Part shown: positions 3,303 to 31,586 of the stretch, piece after piece
How positions within the stretch are numbered: the first letter of the stretch is position 1
Layout: each line of letters opens with the position of its first letter
Source of the DNA: Patescibacteria group bacterium
GTDB lineage: Bacteria; Patescibacteriota; Minisyncoccia; UBA6257; HR35
DNA length: 32,000 bases
Assembly: GCA_023480925.1 (NCBI GenBank)
Contig: JAMCWY010000019.1
Span: forward strand, 12,268 to 44,267
Direction: 5' to 3'
Notes under the pieces: generated by a model
Told to the model about the DNA's origin: nothing
The model's database searches: none
Seen by the model: the letters and a program-made list of their open reading frames with translations, nothing else
Position numbers and translations under genes: made by a program

Positions 3303-4010
3303 ATGGAGATAATTCCGATCAAGACAAGAATTTTCAAAGAAAGCGACGATTTGTTCGGTTTTCTCCGCGCCAATCTTCCGTTATTGAAATCGGGCGATAT
3401 CGTTGTCGTGACTTCAAAAATCGTGGCCCTGGCCCAAGGCCGAACCGTCCTATTTTCGCCTAAAGAAAAATATAAGTGGATAAAAAAAGAAAGCGACCAA
3501 ATTATTAAAACACCCTGGGCTTATCTGACTCTCAGAGAAAAACGTTGGTGCGTTAGCGCCGGTATCGATGAATCTAACGGCCGGGGCCGATTAATTTTTT
3601 TACCCAATGCCCCATTTAGCGTGGCCAAAAATCTTCAAAAGAAATTAAAAAAATTTTATGGCCTAAAAAAAATCGGCGTTCTGATCACGGACACTCGGAG
3701 CACGCCCTTGCGGGCGGGGGTGATCGGTTCAACTCTGGCCTACTTTGGTTTCTCGCCCATGAAAGACTACGTTGGTAAAAAAGATTTATTTGGCAGAAAG
3801 TTTAAATTTGTCAAAAGTAATATTGTTGATGCCTTAGCCGCGGCGGCGGGCGTAACGATGGGCGAAGGAGCGGAACGAAAACCAATTGCCGTTATCCGAA
3901 ATGCCAATGTTTATTTTACTCAAAAAAAACAATCTTTGGCAAAAGTTTTGATTAGACCCGAAAAAGATCTCTACCGATTTATTTACCGCCGAATTCGATC
4001 AACATCTTAA
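3303..4010 (+). CDS. CofE/FbiB-like gamma-glutamyl ligase family protein (F420-0:L-glutamate ligase fold)
   Basis: Motifs LKSGDIVVVTSKIVALAQGR, SAGIDESNG and VLITDTRSTPLRAGVIG are typical of the F420_ligase (CofE) family. Confidence 0.7.
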   Translation: MEIIPIKTRIFKESDDLFGFLRANLPLLKSGDIVVVTSKIVALAQGRTVLFSPKEKYKWIKKESDQIIKTPWAYLTLREKRWCVSAGIDESNGRGRLIFLPNAPFSVAKNLQKKLKKFYGLKKIGVLITDTRSTPLRAGVIGSTLAYFGFSPMKDYVGKKDLFGRKFKFVKSNIVDALAAAAGVTMGEGAERKPIAVIRNANVYFTQKKQSLAKVLIRPEKDLYRFIYRRIRSTS

Positions 4011-4065
4011 TCAGCCGTATTATTTTCGTCCAATCAATAAAATCCTATTTTAAAAAAGAAAAACA

Positions 4066-5061
4066 ATGAAACCGTGTTTCGTCAGCCCGTTGATCCAAAC
4101 AGTTGGCCGCGAGTTAGGAATTGAGGTCCGGTTGGAACCGAAGTATGGCTATGCCGGACAGTTAATTTTGCCGAACGGCCAAAAACGTTATTTCCGCAAC
4201 AATAGTTTCGATATCAATCTCCTGGGCGCTTCGGAAATTGCGAAAGACAAAATGTACGCGGCCTCCTTCCTCGCCAAGATGAACTACCCCGTCCCTGAAG
4301 GCGAAGAGTTTTTTTCCGACGCGTGGTGCGAAACTATCGCAAGTAAACGAGAGGCGCGAGCGGCCTATCGCTACGCCCAGTCAATTGGATTTCCCGTTAT
4401 AATTAAACCAAACAACAAAAGTCAAGGCGAAGGTGTTTTTAAAGTTGCGGGCAAAATTGATTTTTTCCGCTCGGTTGAAACAATCACTGCTTCCGACCGC
4501 GTCTTTTTAGTCCAACGGATAGTTGAAGGCGACGATTTTCGTTTCGTTGTTTTGGATCAAGAAGTTCTCGCCGCTTACCAAAGGATTCCACTTTCGGTCA
4601 CTGGCGATGGCCAATCTTCAATCCTGACACTATTGAAACAAAAACAAAAATCTTTTGATCGGTTAAAACGTTTTATTCGAATCTCGTTTGCCGACAATCG
4701 AATTACAAATCAGTTGAAACAATTAAAACTAACGCTCGATTCTATTTTGGGGATGGGTCAAATAATTCAGGTCCTGCCAATAGCCAATCTTTCTCTGGGC
4801 GGCGAGGCGATCGATCTGAGTGAAAAAATTCATCCCGATTGGAAACGTTTGGCTATTGAGATTACTCGGGCGATGGGACTACGTTTCTGCGGTTTAGACT
4901 TTATTATTCAAGGCAAAATTTGGGCTCAACCTTTTTCGTACGTGATTTTAGAATTAAATCCTTCACCCGGCCTTGAACACTTCGCCTCTTTGGGCAAAAA
5001 ACAGCGCGAGCGAGTTAAGATTATTTATCGAAAATTATTAGAAACGTTCTTGGAGAATTAA
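4066..5061 (+). CDS. ATP-grasp ligase (RimK / glutathione-synthetase / cyanophycin-synthetase-like)
   Basis: FPVIIKPNNKSQGEGVFKV and ILELNPSPGLEH resemble ATP-grasp nucleotide-binding and catalytic segments. It lies 55 nt downstream of the CofE-like gene. Confidence 0.65.
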   Translation: MKPCFVSPLIQTVGRELGIEVRLEPKYGYAGQLILPNGQKRYFRNNSFDINLLGASEIAKDKMYAASFLAKMNYPVPEGEEFFSDAWCETIASKREARAAYRYAQSIGFPVIIKPNNKSQGEGVFKVAGKIDFFRSVETITASDRVFLVQRIVEGDDFRFVVLDQEVLAAYQRIPLSVTGDGQSSILTLLKQKQKSFDRLKRFIRISFADNRITNQLKQLKLTLDSILGMGQIIQVLPIANLSLGGEAIDLSEKIHPDWKRLAIEITRAMGLRFCGLDFIIQGKIWAQPFSYVILELNPSPGLEHFASLGKKQRERVKIIYRKLLETFLEN

Positions 5062-13997: not shown

Positions 13998-14119
13998 TCG
14001 AAATAATAAGTTGTCTAAATTAACTCAAACTTGACTTTTGATTAAAAAAAGGCCGTGAGCCTTTAAATGACTTCATTTTAACACGTCTAAACTAAAATCC
14101 AATTTAAATATTATTCCAA

Positions 14120-15139
14120 CTAAAAACCGAGGCTGATTTTTTCGCGCTCGACCATTTCCTTTTCAATTCGATAAAGACCGAGCTTGCCTAAAATATAAAA
14201 ACAAAACCAAGCGATAAAACTCAGAACCCACCCATAAAACCACAAAATTGATTGGACAATAACGACGATTAGCAGCGCCAAAATAATCTTGACGGCGTAA
14301 AATTTTAGCTGGTCGCGGCTCGAGTTTAACCAAAACAAACTGAGATATTTGTAAACCGCTTGGCTTAAAGTATCGTTGGGGTTGATGTTGGTTTTGAGTT
14401 TGTTATTTAAATTACTTAGAGTTGGACTAACGGCCGCCGCCTCAATCGTTCCGGTTGAAACCTGAATCGGCTGGCTGGTTGAGCCGACCGGCAGACCAAG
14501 ATTGCTTAAATTAACCACACTACTCTCCGACATAATGTTACTTGAAATAATCTCGCTAACCTTGGTTTCGGGCGTAATTTGAACCTTAAGACTTTGGCTA
14601 ACTTGACTAAAAATCGGCGTGGTTAAGTTGGCCAAACGATTAAAATTCTGGGCCGAAATAAAATCTTGACCCGAACTAGTAAAAACCACAATAATCAAAA
14701 TTAAAATTAAAAACCAGTTTACGACCGTCCACTTCGCCCGAGTCAAACCAAGCCAGTTAATTTTTAACTTCGCCTGTTCAACGCTCATCATCCGCCAAAA
14801 GGCGTTCAGGCTGACGATAATAAAAATCAAAAAAGACCAGCTGGCCAAATTAACGTTCCCGGTCAAACGATAAAACCAAACTGACAAAAACACGGCCACG
14901 ATCACTTGGGCCAAAAAAGAAATAATAAAATCGCCGCCAAGCTCAAGGAGAATATCAAAAAGCAACCAGATGAGCGCACTTAAAATAAAAACATTAAATA
15001 AATTAAAGTTGAGCTGAAGAAAAACGATCAAGCCGAGATAGGCCGTACTTGAACCAAAAATGATCGTGGCTAAAAATATCAAGATTGTTTTTAAACCAAC
15101 CCTCTCAATCTTTGCCACTTCTTCGCTTTTAATCACCAT
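14120..15139 (-). CDS. hypothetical polytopic membrane protein inserted between dnaK and dnaJ
   Basis: A 339-aa ORF with several hydrophobic helices at both ends. It has its own TATAAT (15148-15153, minus) 8 nt before the ATG. Confidence 0.6.
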   Translation of the reverse strand: MVIKSEEVAKIERVGLKTILIFLATIIFGSSTAYLGLIVFLQLNFNLFNVFILSALIWLLFDILLELGGDFIISFLAQVIVAVFLSVWFYRLTGNVNLASWSFLIFIIVSLNAFWRMMSVEQAKLKINWLGLTRAKWTVVNWFLILILIIVVFTSSGQDFISAQNFNRLANLTTPIFSQVSQSLKVQITPETKVSEIISSNIMSESSVVNLSNLGLPVGSTSQPIQVSTGTIEAAAVSPTLSNLNNKLKTNINPNDTLSQAVYKYLSLFWLNSSRDQLKFYAVKIILALLIVVIVQSILWFYGWVLSFIAWFCFYILGKLGLYRIEKEMVEREKISLGF

Positions 15140-24187: not shown

Positions 24188-24469
24188 TTAATTTTTTTGA
24201 GAATAACCTGACTGAATTAATTCTATTTTTTGCCGGCGCGAAAAATTTTTAACCGCCGCCTCGCGCCGAAGAGCAAGCGACCGGCTCGGATGCTTTTCAA
24301 AATAAACCAACTCGGCGGGCCAACGACTTTTGACATAGGCACTGCCACGACCAGAGCGATGATCCTGAAAACGTTTTTTAAGATCGATGGCGATACCAGC
24401 GTAAAAACTTTGGTCCCGGCAACGCAAAAGATAAAAATAATACGGTTTACTCAACTGCACCCGTTTCAT
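24188..24469 (-). CDS. GIY-YIG nuclease superfamily protein (UPF0213-like)
   Basis: YYFYLLRCRDQSFYAGIAIDLKKRFQDHRSG...E.A.K matches the GIY-YIG pattern. The start is taken at MKRVQLSK. Confidence 0.75.
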   Translation of the reverse strand: MKRVQLSKPYYFYLLRCRDQSFYAGIAIDLKKRFQDHRSGRGSAYVKSRWPAELVYFEKHPSRSLALRREAAVKNFSRRQKIELIQSGYSQKN

Positions 24470-24662
24470 CGGCAAGCTCAGCCTTGACGGTCTTGAATTC
24501 ATTCTCGACCTCCTTCAACCTGACTTTCAAATCCTTAATCAAAACCACCCCTTCTTTAACTTTTTTTAAACCGGCCTCAACGTCAACTTCTTCTTGGCTT
24601 TCAAACCAACTAATAATCTGTTCCAATTTTTTTAATGACTCGCTGATTTTTTCTTTCTCCAT
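24447..24662 (-). CDS. xseB: exodeoxyribonuclease VII small subunit
   Basis: A 71-aa helical protein (LKKLEQIISWFE...). It lies immediately downstream of xseA. Confidence 0.8.
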   Translation of the reverse strand: MEKEKISESLKKLEQIISWFESQEEVDVEAGLKKVKEGVVLIKDLKVRLKEVENEFKTVKAELADETGAVE

Positions 24663-27552: not shown

Positions 27553-27626
27553 TGCGGGGTCGTCTAATGGTAGGACCGTGGACTCTGGATCCATGTATCT
27601 AGGTTCGAATCCTAGCCCCGCAGCCA
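27553..27626 (+). tRNA. tRNA-Gln (anticodon CUG), CCA encoded
   Basis: I folded it by hand. The acceptor is TGCGGGG/CCCCGCA (U1-A72) with discriminator G73 and CCA. The D stem is GTCT/GGAC. The anticodon stem is GTGGA/TCCAT with loop CT-CTG-GA. The T arm is CTAGG-TTCGAAT-CCTAG. Total length is 74 nt. Confidence 0.93.
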
Positions 27627-27637
27627 AATTTGACGCA

Positions 27638-27839
27638 ACAAACTTTTGACATTATTTTGCCGAATTTAATCCACAAATCTAAGAAACGAGACCTTACCTG
27701 ATAGTTGCCCGCCGCCTGCGGCGGCGGGTAGGAAAACCCGTCGGCTCTCGCGGGCAAAAATTTTTCCCCTCAAACTCCCCCAATTTTTGGCCGCGAGACA
27801 ACCACAAAAGATTTACAAAATCAGTGAGATAGTGTATAA
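27638..27839. repeat. left copy of the 202-bp inverted repeat (IR-L)
   Basis: It matches the reverse complement of 30423-30624 at 194/202 positions with no gaps (hand alignment). Confidence 0.95.
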
Positions 27840-27845: not shown

Positions 27846-28238
27846 TCAGTACATTCAAATTCCAAACGAAAAGAGAAGAGGTGTAACTGTGTTTATTTAT
27901 ATCGGTGGCGTACCCGGGAACAGATGCTTACGATAACGCTCATTGTCGCGACCCCCATACCATCTGCGTCGCCGTCTCAAAGACGCGGACGATCGGCATG
28001 ACCGTAAGCGTAATATTGATTTTCTGATTCACGAACAGAAAATAGAAGTCAATATTGCCGTTTCTCAAGCCGCAGAACTCGGCATTCCTCTTTGCTGCGT
28101 GAGTAATAAGGGTGGCGAGAATCCGATAGCTTCGGAAGTACTTTTCTCTTTCTGTGTCCACCAAGCGCTATGCCGCAAAATACTGCGGCGCATCTTTCCC
28201 TGACCCACCGTACATTTCCCTACGGTGGGTTTTTATTT
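27846..28238 (+). ncRNA. candidate structured non-coding transcript (~390 nt), family unknown
   Basis: It is bounded by the IR-L promoter and a strong intrinsic terminator, and it is locally GC-enriched. It contains several helices, including 27926-27932/28003-28009, a 15-bp bulged hairpin at 28012-28056, and 28172-28189. The only ORFs are TTG-initiated, lack an RBS and mutually overlap. Confidence 0.45.
28203..28238 (+). terminator. rho-independent terminator (plus-strand orientation)
   Basis: ACCCACCGTA (28203-28212), an 8-nt loop, then TACGGTGGGT (28221-28230), followed by TTTTTATTT. On the minus strand no T-run follows the stem. Confidence 0.8.
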
Positions 28239-28781
28239 GAATACGCAATTTTCTTTAGTAATACCGTGGTTTTTTTTATAATCTTCCCATAGACCAAGGT
28301 ATGCCCTGGTAATCCTTGGCCGATCTAAAAGATTAAATTCGTTGAGATACCGATCTATTGTTTTCGGTTCACCCTCAAACTCAACAAAAAAACCGAAAGG
28401 TAATTTGTCAAATGAGATAGCAATATCATTTTTGAAAACATTTTTTCGTTTTTTCTCAAAAATAATTTCTTTGCTAAAACCCAAAGACCTCAATATCTCC
28501 CTCAAATTTTCAATATTTTCACCCTCTTTCATTTTTATCTCCAGTTCTTCTCGCTCAAAAAACTGGGCGTTTTCTCTTGTTTTTCTTTTCACAGTTAAAA
28601 TAATCTCTTTTTTCTCTCCTTCTACATATTTAATTCTTGGGAAAATGCCATCTTTGATGTTTGAAAAATCCTCTTTGAAATAGCCAAAGGTTCTTTCCAG
28701 GTGGAAATTATCAAAACCATCGGTAAAACGGCTAAATTCTTCAGGCGTTAATTCAATTTTTACTTCTATTTCTTTTTTCAT
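28233..28781 (-). CDS. CYTH-domain protein (triphosphate tunnel metalloenzyme; CyaB/ThTPase-like)
   Basis: N-terminal ExExK motif (EIEVKIE), plus further acidic strand motifs (REELEIK, FVEFEGE). It is 182 aa. It overlaps the upstream gene by 29 nt. Confidence 0.7.
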   Translation of the reverse strand: MKKEIEVKIELTPEEFSRFTDGFDNFHLERTFGYFKEDFSNIKDGIFPRIKYVEGEKKEIILTVKRKTRENAQFFEREELEIKMKEGENIENLREILRSLGFSKEIIFEKKRKNVFKNDIAISFDKLPFGFFVEFEGEPKTIDRYLNEFNLLDRPRITRAYLGLWEDYKKNHGITKENCVFK

Positions 28782-29664
28782 ATTTTTCTTCTTTTTCGTG
28801 GTCGTAATACGTTGGATATTTTTCAGACATTGGGAATCTGTATTTTGTTTGGTCTTTCACTCCCGCTTCTTTATATCCCCTCCGTCGGTCCCAACAAGTG
28901 GGACAATCGCCGCATTCGATATCAAATGATTTAACACAGGTTCTTGCTTTGTGCAGGGGTATTCCGTTTTCGAAAGACCATTTTATAAAAACATCTTTAT
29001 CAAAATAATTTCCAAACTCCGTTTCTATGGGGAGTGATATAAACTGCCAAGACCAATCGTTCAGTATTTGACAAAATAATATGTTCATTAACCTAACCCA
29101 AGTTTGAGAACAGTGATAGGAAAAATCCGAACTCATATTAGAGGCGAATACTGTTTTTGTTTCAACCCCCAGTGCTTTTAAAGAATAGCCGTACTCCATT
29201 CCGGTTAAAAATACTATTGGTCCTCTTGCCGGATAAGATATGTTATGACTTAACGGAATATCATCCATTATTCTTTTTGTTTTTCTCAATAAATCCTTGT
29301 ATTCCATCCCCGGCGTCATAATAGTTATCTCTTTATAATTGTGATAAAGTTTTGGGAATTTTCTCTTGTAAAATCGGTCAAAATAATCTACTGACTTCTT
29401 CTCATATTTGTAGTTTGACTGGCCCCTGTTTATGAAAAATGGATAAACATTCAAACTAAATTCTTTTAACAGTATTTCTATATTGGCAACGGAATCTTGG
29501 CCGCCAGACAAACAAGCAACAACGCTATCACCCCCTTTTGGCATTTTAACAACATACCCTCTTTTACTTTTCAGGATACCATCATATATCTTGAGTAGAG
29601 TAATATCCTCATTCTCTTTATTTTCGAATTTTACTTCTCCTTGTTTATTCAGTATTTTGGTCAT
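28753..29664 (-). CDS. QueC-like PP-loop ATPase (7-cyano-7-deazaguanine synthase family)
   Basis: PP-loop ACLSGGQDS and a C-terminal Cys cluster C-x7-C-x2-C-x2-C (CVKSFDIECGDCPTC), followed by RRRGYKEAGVKDQTKY, as in QueC. It has a roughly 45-aa N-terminal extension. Confidence 0.72.
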   Translation of the reverse strand: MTKILNKQGEVKFENKENEDITLLKIYDGILKSKRGYVVKMPKGGDSVVACLSGGQDSVANIEILLKEFSLNVYPFFINRGQSNYKYEKKSVDYFDRFYKRKFPKLYHNYKEITIMTPGMEYKDLLRKTKRIMDDIPLSHNISYPARGPIVFLTGMEYGYSLKALGVETKTVFASNMSSDFSYHCSQTWVRLMNILFCQILNDWSWQFISLPIETEFGNYFDKDVFIKWSFENGIPLHKARTCVKSFDIECGDCPTCWDRRRGYKEAGVKDQTKYRFPMSEKYPTYYDHEKEEKYEKRNRSKN

Positions 29665-30388
29665 AGTGCTTGTATGATTTGATTATTTCTTTTGCTTCCC
29701 CAACGGTTTCTTGATAAATATGTGCATCAGTTATAAAACCATCCAATGGCCCAACCCAAACATTGGTGTTCAATTTTTCTTTTAATCGTTCTACTACTTC
29801 CTTGGACAAAAGAGAGATTGCGACAAAATTTCCTCCAGCTTTTTGATACGCATCTATCGATCTTGCGTTAAATAATGTATTCATGTGATACCCCCTTTCC
29901 CCATTCATTTTAATAAGTCGGAATTGGACAGTTGTAATGCAGGGCAAATAATCATCTTTGGGCCTATCCAAAACTCTTTGATAATCCTCGTGTCTTATAA
30001 AACTCATAATTGCTTTTTTGGATTCTGGAATTTCGGCTAATCTCGCAACCACAAAATCTAACATTCCCCAATCTTTTATTCTTGCATAATAACTTTTACT
30101 ACCGGGACTAAACGAAGGCACGACATCAAAATCGTGCATTATATCCTTGGTGAATGTGAGTTCTATTATCTGGTCTATGTTTTTTTTATCCCCATACTTT
30201 TCAATAAGAACATCGGGGAGAGATTGCGTTGCTGATTTCATACGGATATTCTGCAGACTAACTCTTTTTCTCCCATCATCTTCAGTGAGCACTCCATTTT
30301 TAATAATCGCTTCAACTAAGCTCAACCAGACGCTTCCTATTGTTTCACCGAAAATGTTATAACCGAATGGTTCTAGTTTGACATACAT
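29645..30388 (-). CDS. thymidylate synthase (ThyA) fold enzyme, archaeal-like short form
   Basis: It carries LPCITTVQF (catalytic Cys with Q at +5), ARSID followed by N at D+8 (GGNFVAISLL), and TDAHIY (D-x-H-x-Y). These match the ThyA active-site layout. Confidence 0.72.
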   Translation of the reverse strand: MYVKLEPFGYNIFGETIGSVWLSLVEAIIKNGVLTEDDGRKRVSLQNIRMKSATQSLPDVLIEKYGDKKNIDQIIELTFTKDIMHDFDVVPSFSPGSKSYYARIKDWGMLDFVVARLAEIPESKKAIMSFIRHEDYQRVLDRPKDDYLPCITTVQFRLIKMNGERGYHMNTLFNARSIDAYQKAGGNFVAISLLSKEVVERLKEKLNTNVWVGPLDGFITDAHIYQETVGEAKEIIKSYKHYDQNTE

Positions 30389-30421
30389 AAGTTTAAATTA
30401 TTCACAAAAACGATGGTTTAA

Positions 30422-30450
30422 ATTATACACTATCTCACTGATTTTGTAAA
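30422..30450 (-). promoter_or_regulatory. inward-facing promoter TTTACA-N17-TATAAT at the inner end of IR-R, driving the ThyA-like/QueC-like/CYTH operon
   Basis: On the minus strand the -35 is at 30445-30450 and the -10 at 30422-30427, with a 17-nt spacer. The ATG at 30388 implies a leader of about 27 nt with no Shine-Dalgarno sequence. Confidence 0.65.
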
Positions 30451-30624
30451 TCTTTTGTGTTTATCTCGCGGCCAAAAATTGGGGGAGTTTGAGGGGGAAA
30501 ATTTTTGCCCGCGAGAGCCGACGGGTTTTCCTACCCGCCGCCGCAGGCGGCGGGCAACTATCAGGTAAGGTTTCGTTTCTTAGATTTGTGGATTAGGTTT
30601 GGTAAAATAATGTCAAAAGTTTGT
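30423..30624. repeat. right copy of the 202-bp inverted repeat (IR-R)
   Basis: Reverse complement of IR-L, with 8 substitutions and no indels. Confidence 0.95.
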
Positions 30625-30916: not shown

Positions 30917-30953
30917 ATTATTGGCATTTTATTATTTAAGGAGGAAAGAAAAA

Positions 30954-31586
30954 ATGGGTTTATTCATCGTGTTTGAAGGAGTCGACGGTTCAGGCAAGAC
31001 GCAGCAGAGCCGACTACTGAGCGACCATCTCAAAAGAAAGGGGTATAAGGTTCTTTTAACCAAAGAACCGGGCGGCGACGATTCAATCTCTTATATGATC
31101 AGATTGATCTTGCTTAACCCCGACCATAAAAACAAAATAGCGACCAAAACCGAGCTGATGCTTTTCGAAGCTGACCGAGCTCAGCATATTGATCGTACCA
31201 TCATGCCTGCTCTTAGAAACGACGAGATCGTCATATCCGACCGGTTTGACGCCGCCACTTACGCTTATCAAGTTTACGCGAGAAATGTTTGTTCCGCTGA
31301 AGAATTCTTTCACTTGAATGAATTCGTAACAAACGCTTTGTCGCCGGATTTTACTTTCTGGCTCGATTTGGACCCAACTATCGGCTTAAAACGCAACGCT
31401 AACGCCGGGAAAAAAGATCGATTCGAACTCGAAGGGATTGAATTCCACCGAAACGTTCGAGAAGGATATATAGAATATTTTCAAAATATCCCGGAGGAAA
31501 AGTACGCCAAGATCACCACCAATCGGCCGATTAAAAAAATCCACGAAGAAATTCTTCAGATTTTGGATAAAAAATTCAAAATCTAA
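30954..31586 (+). CDS. tmk: thymidylate kinase
   Basis: MGLFIVFEGVDGSGKTQQ P-loop, LTKEPGG, and a DRF/D-R motif region. The start is set at the ATG behind a strong SD rather than the track's upstream TTG. Confidence 0.88.
   Translation: MGLFIVFEGVDGSGKTQQSRLLSDHLKRKGYKVLLTKEPGGDDSISYMIRLILLNPDHKNKIATKTELMLFEADRAQHIDRTIMPALRNDEIVISDRFDAATYAYQVYARNVCSAEEFFHLNEFVTNALSPDFTFWLDLDPTIGLKRNANAGKKDRFELEGIEFHRNVREGYIEYFQNIPEEKYAKITTNRPIKKIHEEILQILDKKFKI

What the first reader, a model, noticed from the sequence alone, without database searches (positions are those of the whole stretch)
28233..30450. Unrecognised three-gene operon: ThyA-fold enzyme, orphan QueC-like PP-loop ATPase and CYTH triphosphatase
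Three minus-strand ORFs overlap by 20 and 29 nt, so they are probably translationally coupled. They are driven by one near-consensus promoter. Each acts on nucleotides:
- The ThyA fold transfers a C1 unit to pyrimidine C5.
- QueC-type PP-loop enzymes adenylate a carboxyl or carbonyl group for amidation.
- CYTH tunnel enzymes cleave or cyclise triphosphates.

I do not know a described pathway or defence system with this trio.

Hypothesis A is a modified-pyrimidine pathway built like the T4/SPO1 logic: a dNMP hydroxymethylase or methylase, a dNMP kinase (tmk is adjacent) and a triphosphatase that removes the canonical dNTP. The QueC-like enzyme would add a further amidation or decoration step.

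Hypothesis B is an anti-phage module. QueC-like proteins occur in type IV CBASS (Cap9) and in QatABCD (QatC), and the CYTH protein could make or degrade a nucleotide signal.
Basis: partly seen in the sequence, partly recalled or inferred. Interest (0 to 1): 0.88.

Follow-up and report, generated by a model that had tools for sequence, protein, structure and literature searches.

The report
Conserved thymidylate-synthase-like nucleotide module in CPR bacteria
In several lineages of tiny, host-dependent bacteria (Patescibacteria/CPR), a divergent thymidylate-synthase-like enzyme is always encoded together with a QueC-family ATP-using enzyme, a nucleoside-triphosphate-splitting enzyme and a nucleotide kinase; this points to an uncharacterised pathway that probably makes or handles an unusual DNA building block, and it can be tested directly in the lab.

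Summary
Three minus-strand genes sit at exactly the stated place: a ThyA-fold enzyme (29645-30388), a QueC-family PP-loop ATPase (28753-29664) and a CYTH protein (28233-28781). They overlap by 20 and 29 nt. A TTTACA-17-TATAAT promoter-like site lies upstream, a hairpin lies downstream, and tmk runs divergently. The window is part of a 507-kb Patescibacteria (CPR) genome from a mine-tailings metagenome.

The ThyA-like→QueC-like pair is conserved, adjacent and on the same strand in every genome and metagenome contig where I found the ThyA-like family: 4 of 4 GTDB genomes and at least 5 other lineages. The third slot always holds a nucleoside-triphosphate pyrophosphatase. That is CYTH, or a Ham1/ITPase, or a Ham1 fused to the QueC-like protein. 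A dNMP kinase is usually nearby.

In 3 of 4 genomes a separate housekeeping thymidylate synthase (ThyX, or canonical ThyA) is also present. So the ThyA-like protein is usually an extra, specialised paralog. Its active site is remodelled relative to thymidylate synthase, and structurally it is closest to AfhB/MilA-type pyrimidine C5 hydroxylase/hydroxymethylase enzymes.

Best reading: a lineage-restricted pathway that modifies a dUMP-derived nucleotide, with an ATP-dependent QueC-family ligase step and triphosphate-pool control. The specific chemistry is unknown. There is no support for an anti-phage (Cap9/Qat-type) system.

The parts
30422..30450 (-). sigma70-like promoter (TTTACA-17-TATAAT) upstream of ThyA-like start
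   Evidence: 11/12 match; such sites are common in shuffles
29645..30388 (-). ThyA-fold enzyme, 247 aa; divergent thymidylate-synthase-like protein, predicted dUMP C5-modifying enzyme
   Evidence: active-site alignment; AF2 model; VIA-align: nearest AfhB (Z 21.3) and MilA (Z 18.8), ahead of TS (Z ~17)
28753..29664 (-). QueC-family PP-loop ATP-dependent ligase, 303 aa (SGGQDS, Q(x)5E, YPAR(N), C(x)7CxxCxxCxD zinc motif)
   Evidence: profile hit only to Cap9 9nto; Foldseek: QueC 3bl5/2pg3, Cap9, QatC
28233..28781 (-). CYTH (triphosphate tunnel) protein, 182 aa; predicted nucleoside-triphosphate pyrophosphatase of the module
   Evidence: PF01928 1.7e-4; Patescibacteria-specific homolog family; syntenic CYTH in L022
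28202..28231 (.). GC-rich hairpin just past the CYTH stop (U-tract on + strand)
30921..31586 (+). thymidylate kinase (tmk), divergent from the module; probable kinase partner
   Evidence: PF02223 7.6e-44
30534..30554 (.). GC palindrome CCCGCCGCC-GCA-GGCGGCGGG; one of only two copies in the genome
27708..27728 (.). second copy of the same GC palindrome, on the other side of the module

Best explanation
The three genes form a transcriptional unit. It belongs to a conserved, horizontally spread Patescibacteria module for nucleotide metabolism, made of four parts:
- A specialised ThyA-fold enzyme that transfers a C1 unit (or oxygen) to C5 of dUMP.
- A QueC-family zinc-dependent ligase that uses ATP to adenylate an acyl or hydroxyl group and then lets an amine nucleophile attack it.
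- A nucleoside-triphosphate pyrophosphatase (CYTH here; Ham1 in other lineages) that cleans or clears the triphosphate pool.
- A dNMP kinase (the divergent tmk here).

Together they most likely make a non-canonical deoxypyrimidine nucleotide, derived from dUMP and further decorated by the QueC-like step. They probably also remove the competing canonical or modified triphosphate. This is the logic of phage modified-base pathways, but it is encoded on a cellular chromosome.

What is shown: the conserved synteny, the fusion, the distribution of the other thymidylate synthases, and the active-site and structural similarities. What is inferred: the chemistry, the product and its fate (DNA, signalling or another metabolite). 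In G000, which lacks ThyX, canonical ThyA and DHFR, the ThyA-like protein may also supply dTMP.
For: 1) Conserved co-location:
- ThyA-like is immediately followed by QueC-like (overlapping or adjacent, same strand) in G000, G125, G128 and G345 (all 4 genomes with the ThyA-like family in a sample of 401).
- Same pair in Amesbacteria-type loci L006-L009, Nealsonbacteria L010-L013 (ThyA-QueC-Tmk-CYTH), L021 and L022/L023.

2) Slot 3 is always an NTP pyrophosphatase, and one form is fused to the ligase:
- CYTH in G000, L010 and L022.
- Ham1 in G125 (L018:5000-5581) and G345 (L019:6385-6957).
- QueC-like fused to Ham1 in P0194/P0201 (QueC 44-263 + Ham1 288-455), followed by an AAA_17 kinase in L021.

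3) The ThyA-like protein is usually not the housekeeping thymidylate synthase:
- G125 and G128 carry ThyX; G345 carries canonical ThyA (E 2.4e-102) plus DHFR.
- Canonical ThyA occurs in 195/401 and ThyX in 164/401 Patescibacteria genomes, but the ThyA-like family in only 4/401.

4) The active site is remodelled relative to thymidylate synthase:
- Catalytic Cys150, N187 (=N177, uracil-type) and D179 (=D169) are kept.
- A142→D146 (acidic), H147→I151, Q165→A175 and C168→I178 are changed (positions taken from PMC13326640).
- The C-terminal segment is shorter than in TS.
- Structurally closest to the AfhB flavin-dependent dCMP hydroxylases (Z 21.3) and MilA CMP hydroxymethylase (Z 18.8), ahead of TS (Z ~16-17).

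5) The QueC-like protein has the QueC-family P-loop and zinc motif, so carboxylate/ATP ligase chemistry is likely (PMC13329287). G000 has no CDG source (no PTPS/QueD or QueF), so its substrate is not canonical.
Against: - No product, substrate or downstream enzyme (DNA glycosyltransferase, 5-HMUDK, aGPT-Pplase) was found in the module.
- QueC-family chemistry normally activates a carboxylate, and no carboxylate-bearing pyrimidine intermediate is evident.
- In G000 the ThyA-like protein is the only thymidylate synthase found (no ThyX, no canonical ThyA, no TK; genome 94% complete). It could therefore simply be the housekeeping TS, with tmk adjacency reflecting that.
- The identity of slot 3 varies (CYTH vs Ham1), which could mean loose rather than obligate coupling.
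- The family is rare (about 1% of sampled Patescibacteria).
Confidence: 0.4

Rival explanations
1. Housekeeping dTMP operon with incidental partners. The ThyA-like protein is simply this lineage's (divergent, compact) thymidylate synthase. tmk completes dTMP→dTDP. The QueC-like and CYTH proteins have unrelated functions (for example tRNA or cofactor chemistry) and are co-transcribed only because of genome compaction.
For: - G000 has no other thymidylate synthase and no TK.
- tmk is divergent and adjacent.
- The N187 and D179 pattern fits a dUMP methylase.
- The closest NCBIfam model is a thymidylate synthase family.
Against: - In 3 of 4 genomes a separate ThyX or canonical ThyA coexists.
- The same partners recur across distant lineages, and the QueC-like protein is even fused to Ham1, which argues for a functional unit.
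- G000 and G128 lack DHFR, which is awkward for a DHF-producing TS that is their only TS.
Confidence: 0.25
2. Anti-phage or signalling module of the Cap9/QatC type. The QueC-like ligase conjugates a nucleotide-derived group onto a partner protein (possibly the ThyA-like N-terminus) or builds a nucleotide signal, and the CYTH/Ham1 protein makes or degrades the signal.
For: - The only PDB profile hit of the QueC-like alignment is Cap9 (9nto, E 6.6e-9).
- Foldseek also finds Cap9 and QatC.
- The QueC-like gene is translationally coupled to the ThyA-like gene, as Cap9 and QatC genes are to their substrate proteins.
Against: - No CD-NTase, QatA/QatB/QatD, nuclease or effector is present.
- The ThyA-like N-terminus (conserved MYxKxEPFGY) forms a beta-strand in the model and is not the flexible Gly-rich M(G/S)G(G/S)GG tail that Cap9 modifies (bioRxiv 10.1101/2025.04.06.647259).
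- G000 has no CDG source.
- The flanks are housekeeping genes, not a defence island.
Confidence: 0.12
3. Flavin-dependent variant. The ThyA-like protein is an AfhB-like flavin/O2-dependent pyrimidine C5 hydroxylase acting on dUMP (giving 5-hydroxy-dUMP), or a flavin-dependent ThyA-fold thymidylate synthase. Either would release no DHF, which would explain the absence of DHFR in G000 and G128.
For: - The highest structural Z-scores are to AfhB and the FAD-dependent dCMP monooxygenase (21.3 and 21.2 vs ~17 for TS).
- The protein is compact, like AfhB.
- DHFR is absent from G000 and G128.
Against: - The diagnostic D169N of 5hodCMP synthases is absent (D179 kept; PMC13326640).
- The substrate signature is uracil-type, whereas the AfhB enzymes act on dCMP.
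Confidence: 0.15

Closest known systems
Thymidylate synthase ThyA (PF00303) and the ThyA-fold modifying enzymes: T4-type dCMP hydroxymethylase, SPO1-type dUMP hydroxymethylase, MilA CMP hydroxymethylase, AfhB and 5hodCMP-synthase dCMP hydroxylases
   Same: ThyA fold. Catalytic Cys (C150). dUMP-type N177 (N187) and D169 (D179). The pyrimidine C5-modifying active-site architecture.
   Different: Several substitutions around C5: A142D, H147I, Q165A, C168I. Shorter C-terminus. The N-terminal ~100 residues fall outside the Pfam model. The sequence profile finds no PDB match at E≤1e-3. Structurally nearest to AfhB and MilA rather than TS. It lacks the D169N of 5hodCMP synthases and the L143D/E of hydroxymethylases.
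QueC (7-cyano-7-deazaguanine synthase) and the QueC-family repurposed ligases Cap9 (type IV CBASS) and QatC (QatABCD)
   Same: PP-loop SGGxDS. Zinc motif (C(x)7CxxCxxCxD like Cap9). Q(x)5E and PxR elements of the canonical active site. Fold matches to QueC 3bl5/2pg3, Cap9 9nto and QatC 9y01.
   Different: A 47-aa N-terminal extension and a charged C-terminal tail. It partners a ThyA-fold enzyme and an NTPase, not a CD-NTase/Cap10 or QatB/QatD. No CDG source in G000. Only partial canonical substrate motifs (Y→R before Q(x)5E; YPARG instead of VPxRN in G000).
Phage pre-replicative modified-pyrimidine pathways (SPO1 hmU: dUMP hydroxymethylase + dNMP kinase + dTTPase/dTMPase; T4 hmC; RB69/DLP3 5hodC; Z-genome PurZ/MazZ/DatZ logic)
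   Same: The combination of a ThyA-fold nucleotide C5-modifier, a dNMP kinase and a (d)NTP pyrophosphatase that controls the triphosphate pool.
   Different: Chromosomal, in Patescibacteria, not phage-encoded. It adds a QueC-family ATP ligase. No DNA glycosyltransferase, 5-HMUDK or aGPT-Pplase was found. The product is unknown.
CYTH/triphosphate tunnel metalloenzymes (class IV adenylate cyclase CyaB, inorganic triphosphatase) and Ham1/ITPase
   Same: Hydrolyse or cyclise nucleoside triphosphates. Here the two families appear interchangeable in slot 3 of the module.
   Different: This CYTH belongs to a Patescibacteria-specific subfamily and is tied to the module by synteny; its substrate is unknown.

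Membership tests
Canonical thymidylate synthase ThyA (housekeeping) | Strong PF00303 full-length match (E ~1e-100 in Patescibacteria ThyA) | tested here: not met
   Only E 3.2e-7 over residues 108-237; genome hit 2.3e-7 vs ~1e-100 for canonical ThyA in the same phylum
Canonical thymidylate synthase ThyA (housekeeping) | Conserved active site: C146, H147, Q165, S167, C168, D169, N177, L143 | tested here: inconclusive
   C, S, D and N are kept; H147I, Q165A and C168I are changed; L143 position is Y147 and A142 is D146
Canonical thymidylate synthase ThyA (housekeeping) | Sole thymidylate synthase of the genome | tested here: inconclusive
   Sole TS in G000, but coexists with ThyX in G125/G128 and with canonical ThyA in G345
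5hodCMP synthase / AfhB dCMP hydroxylase | D169N diagnostic substitution and dCMP-type N177D | tested here: not met
   D179 and N187 are kept (criterion from PMC13326640); structure is nonetheless closest to AfhB
T4-type dCMP/dUMP hydroxymethylase | Acidic residue at the L143 position | tested here: inconclusive
   L143 position is Y147, but the adjacent A142 position is D146
Canonical QueC (queuosine pathway) | Pathway partners QueD/QueE/QueF/FolE present to supply CDG and use preQ0 | tested here: not met
   G000 has no PTPS/QueD and no QueF; QueE and FolE not tested; TGT present
Canonical QueC (queuosine pathway) | Canonical motifs YxQxHxxE, VPxRN, YPDC and C(x)8CxxCxxC | tested here: not met
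   Only partly: Q(x)5E with R in place of Y; YPARG in G000 (consensus YPARN); zinc motif spacing C(x)7CxxCxxC (and sequence)
Type IV CBASS Cap9 | Adjacent CD-NTase with an N-terminal M(G/S)G(G/S)GG motif and a Cap10 TGT-like partner | tested here: not met
   Partners are ThyA-like, CYTH/Ham1 and a kinase; no CD-NTase in the locus; ThyA-like N-terminus is MYVKLEPFGY
QatABCD (QatC) | QatA ATPase, QatB and QatD TatD nuclease in the operon | tested here: not met
   None present; QatC NCBIfam match far below cut-off
Phage-type pre-replicative modified-base pathway | C5-modifying ThyA-fold enzyme plus dNMP kinase plus NTP hydrolase plus evidence the base enters DNA | tested here: inconclusive
   The first three are present; incorporation into DNA is not testable with these tools

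The most novel reading that the evidence does not exclude
These CPR bacteria make a hypermodified deoxypyrimidine (a dUMP-derived C5-substituted base further amidated or aminated by the QueC-family ligase) and put it into their own chromosomal DNA. The CYTH/Ham1 enzyme removes the competing triphosphate. This would be a cellular, phage-like base-substitution or protection system in episymbiotic bacteria.
Probability: 0.12. Interest if true: 0.85.

Novelty: new variant of a known kind. Interest (0 to 1): 0.6.

Why it matters
If the module makes a non-canonical nucleotide, it would add a cellular member, found in reduced-genome episymbionts, to the set of pathways known from phages that replace or decorate DNA bases. 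It would also give the QueC ligase family a new, pyrimidine-linked job, beyond queuosine, cofactor and protein-conjugation roles, and show CYTH and Ham1 standing in for each other as pool-cleaning enzymes. Even the modest reading, that a specialised ThyA-fold paralog sits beside housekeeping thymidylate synthases in these lineages, raises the testable question of what it makes. A few enzyme assays with LC-MS can answer it.

Tried and rejected
There is no CD-NTase, Qat or nuclease partner, there is no defence-island context, and PADLOC gave only a generic QueC hit.
- Queuosine-pathway QueC: rejected. There is no PTPS/QueD or QueF in G000, and the canonical motifs are only partly kept.
- TilS substitute for the QueC-like protein: rejected. 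The genome encodes tRNA-Ile(UAU), so lysidine is not needed.
- GMP-synthase-like role for the QueC-like protein: considered and judged unlikely. The GMPS-cluster motifs are absent and the zinc motif is present (PMC13329287).
- Riboswitch in the flanks: none found at gathering or E≤1.
- The GC palindromes bracketing the module: they occur only in G000 and not in the other module loci, so they are not a conserved module element.
- tRNA-adjacent insertion: tRNAs lie within a few kb in several module loci, but that is expected by chance in these genomes, so it is not taken as evidence of mobility.
- Sequence-profile searches of PDB with the ThyA-like alignment found no match at E≤1e-3; at E≤10 only E. 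faecalis TS was found.
- RNA evidence: no RNA holder was listed.
- Ham1 in G000: a motif scan found none. This is tentative and was not tested with an HMM.
- A complex prediction (ThyA-like with QueC-like) was considered and not run. A pass would not identify the modification, and no support would not count against binding.
Full report
Observation. The three minus-strand ORFs are exactly as described: ThyA-like 29645-30388 (247 aa), QueC-like 28753-29664 (303 aa) and CYTH 28233-28781 (182 aa). They overlap by 20 and 29 nt, which fits translational coupling. Pfam confirms the ThyA fold and QueC. The CYTH Pfam score is just under the gathering cut-off, but the ExExK motif, close homologs carrying PF01928 and a syntenic CYTH at E 3e-14 secure it. 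A TTTACA-17-TATAAT site lies at 30450-30422; such sites are common in shuffles, so it is plausible, not proven. A strong hairpin follows the CYTH stop. tmk runs divergently at 30921-31586. The window belongs to G000, a 507-kb, 94%-complete Patescibacteria genome from a mine-tailings metagenome. Its other genes are chaperones, enolase, PPDK, AlaRS, TrmD, FtsH and ExoVII-L.

Is the ThyA-like protein the housekeeping thymidylate synthase? In G000 it is the only thymidylate synthase-fold protein found: no ThyX, no TK and no DHFR, though SHMT is present.

Across a sample of 401 Patescibacteria genomes, canonical ThyA (195) and ThyX (164) are the usual thymidylate synthases. The ThyA-like family occurs in only 4 genomes. 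In three of those a housekeeping thymidylate synthase coexists: ThyX in G125 and G128, canonical ThyA plus DHFR in G345. The family is therefore mostly an extra, specialised paralog.

Its active site, aligned to E. faecalis thymidylate synthase, keeps:
- catalytic C150;
- N187 (= N177, the uracil-type residue);
- D179 (= D169);
- S177 and the DxHxY motif.

It changes A142→D146, H147→I151, Q165→A175 and C168→I178, all positions within 6 Å of dUMP C5 according to PMC13326640. The C-terminus is short.

In structure (AF2 with MSA, pLDDT 84) it is closest to phage AfhB flavin-dependent dCMP hydroxylases (Z 21.3), then MilA CMP hydroxymethylase (Z 18.8), then canonical thymidylate synthases (Z ~16-17). 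It does not carry the D169N signature of 5hodCMP synthases. My reading is a divergent dUMP C5-modifying enzyme of unknown product. In G000 it may double as the dTMP source.

The QueC-like protein. In G000 the only PP-loop ATPases are this protein and MnmA. No PTPS/QueD or QueF is present, so there is no CDG supply, although TGT exists. The protein keeps SGGQDS, Q(x)5E, YPAR(N) and a Cap9-like C(x)7CxxCxxCxD zinc motif, with a 47-aa N-terminal extension. The only PDB hit of its alignment profile is Cap9. Its AF2 model (pLDDT 90) matches QueC 3bl5/2pg3, Cap9 and QatC about equally. The QueC superfamily is described in PMC13329287 and in the Cap9 NDG paper.

Conserved module. The ThyA-like gene is followed by the QueC-like gene in:
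- all 4 genomes with the family;
- Amesbacteria-type loci, where a dNK is divergent;
- Nealsonbacteria: ThyA-QueC-Tmk-CYTH;
- L021: ThyA then a QueC-like–Ham1 fusion, then an AAA_17 kinase;
- L022: ThyA-QueC, with a divergent second QueC paralog followed by CYTH.

G125 and G345 carry Ham1 in slot 3. G255 has a CYTH with a decayed QueC-like remnant.

Thus a nucleoside-triphosphate pyrophosphatase always accompanies the pair: CYTH, or Ham1, or Ham1 fused to the QueC-like protein. A dNMP kinase (tmk, dNK or AAA_17) is usually nearby.

Mechanism (inferred). A C5-modifying enzyme acts on a dUMP-type nucleotide. A QueC-family zinc ligase then performs an ATP-dependent activation and amidation or amination step. 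A kinase and an NTP pyrophosphatase govern the triphosphate pool. This parallels phage pre-replicative base-substitution pathways (PMC8989533; PMC13326640), but is chromosomal and includes a QueC-family step. The product, and whether it enters DNA, are not shown.

The anti-phage reading lacks every defining partner. The housekeeping-operon reading explains G000 alone but not the recurrent partners, the fusion or the coexisting thymidylate synthases elsewhere.

Noticed in passing: a GC palindrome present only twice in the genome, at 27708 and 30534, brackets the module. tRNA-Gln sits at 27553-27623. The genome uses tRNA-Ile(UAU). A CofE-like ligase and a RimK-like ATP-grasp sit at 3303-5061.

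Noticed in passing
window 27708-27728 and 30534-30554: A perfect GC palindrome (CCCGCCGCC-TGC/GCA-GGCGGCGGG) occurs only twice in the whole genome, once on each side of the module. Further weak paired repeats lie nearby (D2, D5, D10). It is absent from the other module loci.
   Followed up: partly
window 27553-27623 (+): tRNA-Gln(CTG) lies next to the module.
   Followed up: partly
G000 genome: The genome encodes tRNA-Ile with a UAU anticodon and has no TilS-like PP-loop ATPase, i.e. a Mycoplasma-like AUA decoding strategy.
   Followed up: yes
window 3303-5061 (+): An F420-0:gamma-glutamyl ligase (CofE-like, E 1e-36) sits next to a RimK-like ATP-grasp protein. This is unusual for a CPR genome; it could be a folate or pterin glutamate ligase (MptN-like).
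   Followed up: no
G000 contig C8:8283-9410: A strong TGT (tRNA-guanine transglycosylase, E 1e-119) is present although there is no QueD/QueF, implying salvage of queuine or preQ1.
   Followed up: partly
L017:2114-4417 and L006 6618-8921: In Amesbacteria-type module loci a conserved 767-aa protein lies convergent to the ThyA-QueC pair, with weak B12-binding and radical SAM hits. A radical SAM/Fer4_12 protein lies upstream of ThyA in Nealsonbacteria (L010). These could be further module enzymes.
   Followed up: partly
L022 (GCA_003557645 contig): Two QueC-like paralogs: one follows ThyA-like, the other (P0239) is divergent and followed by CYTH.
   Followed up: partly
G255 C16 ~14000-14800 (L015): An intact CYTH follows only a C-terminal remnant of the QueC-like gene, and there is no ThyA-like gene: an apparently decaying module.
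   Followed up: partly
window 24188-24502 (-): A small GIY-YIG nuclease ORF (104 aa) sits between ExoVII-L and enolase-region genes.
   Followed up: no
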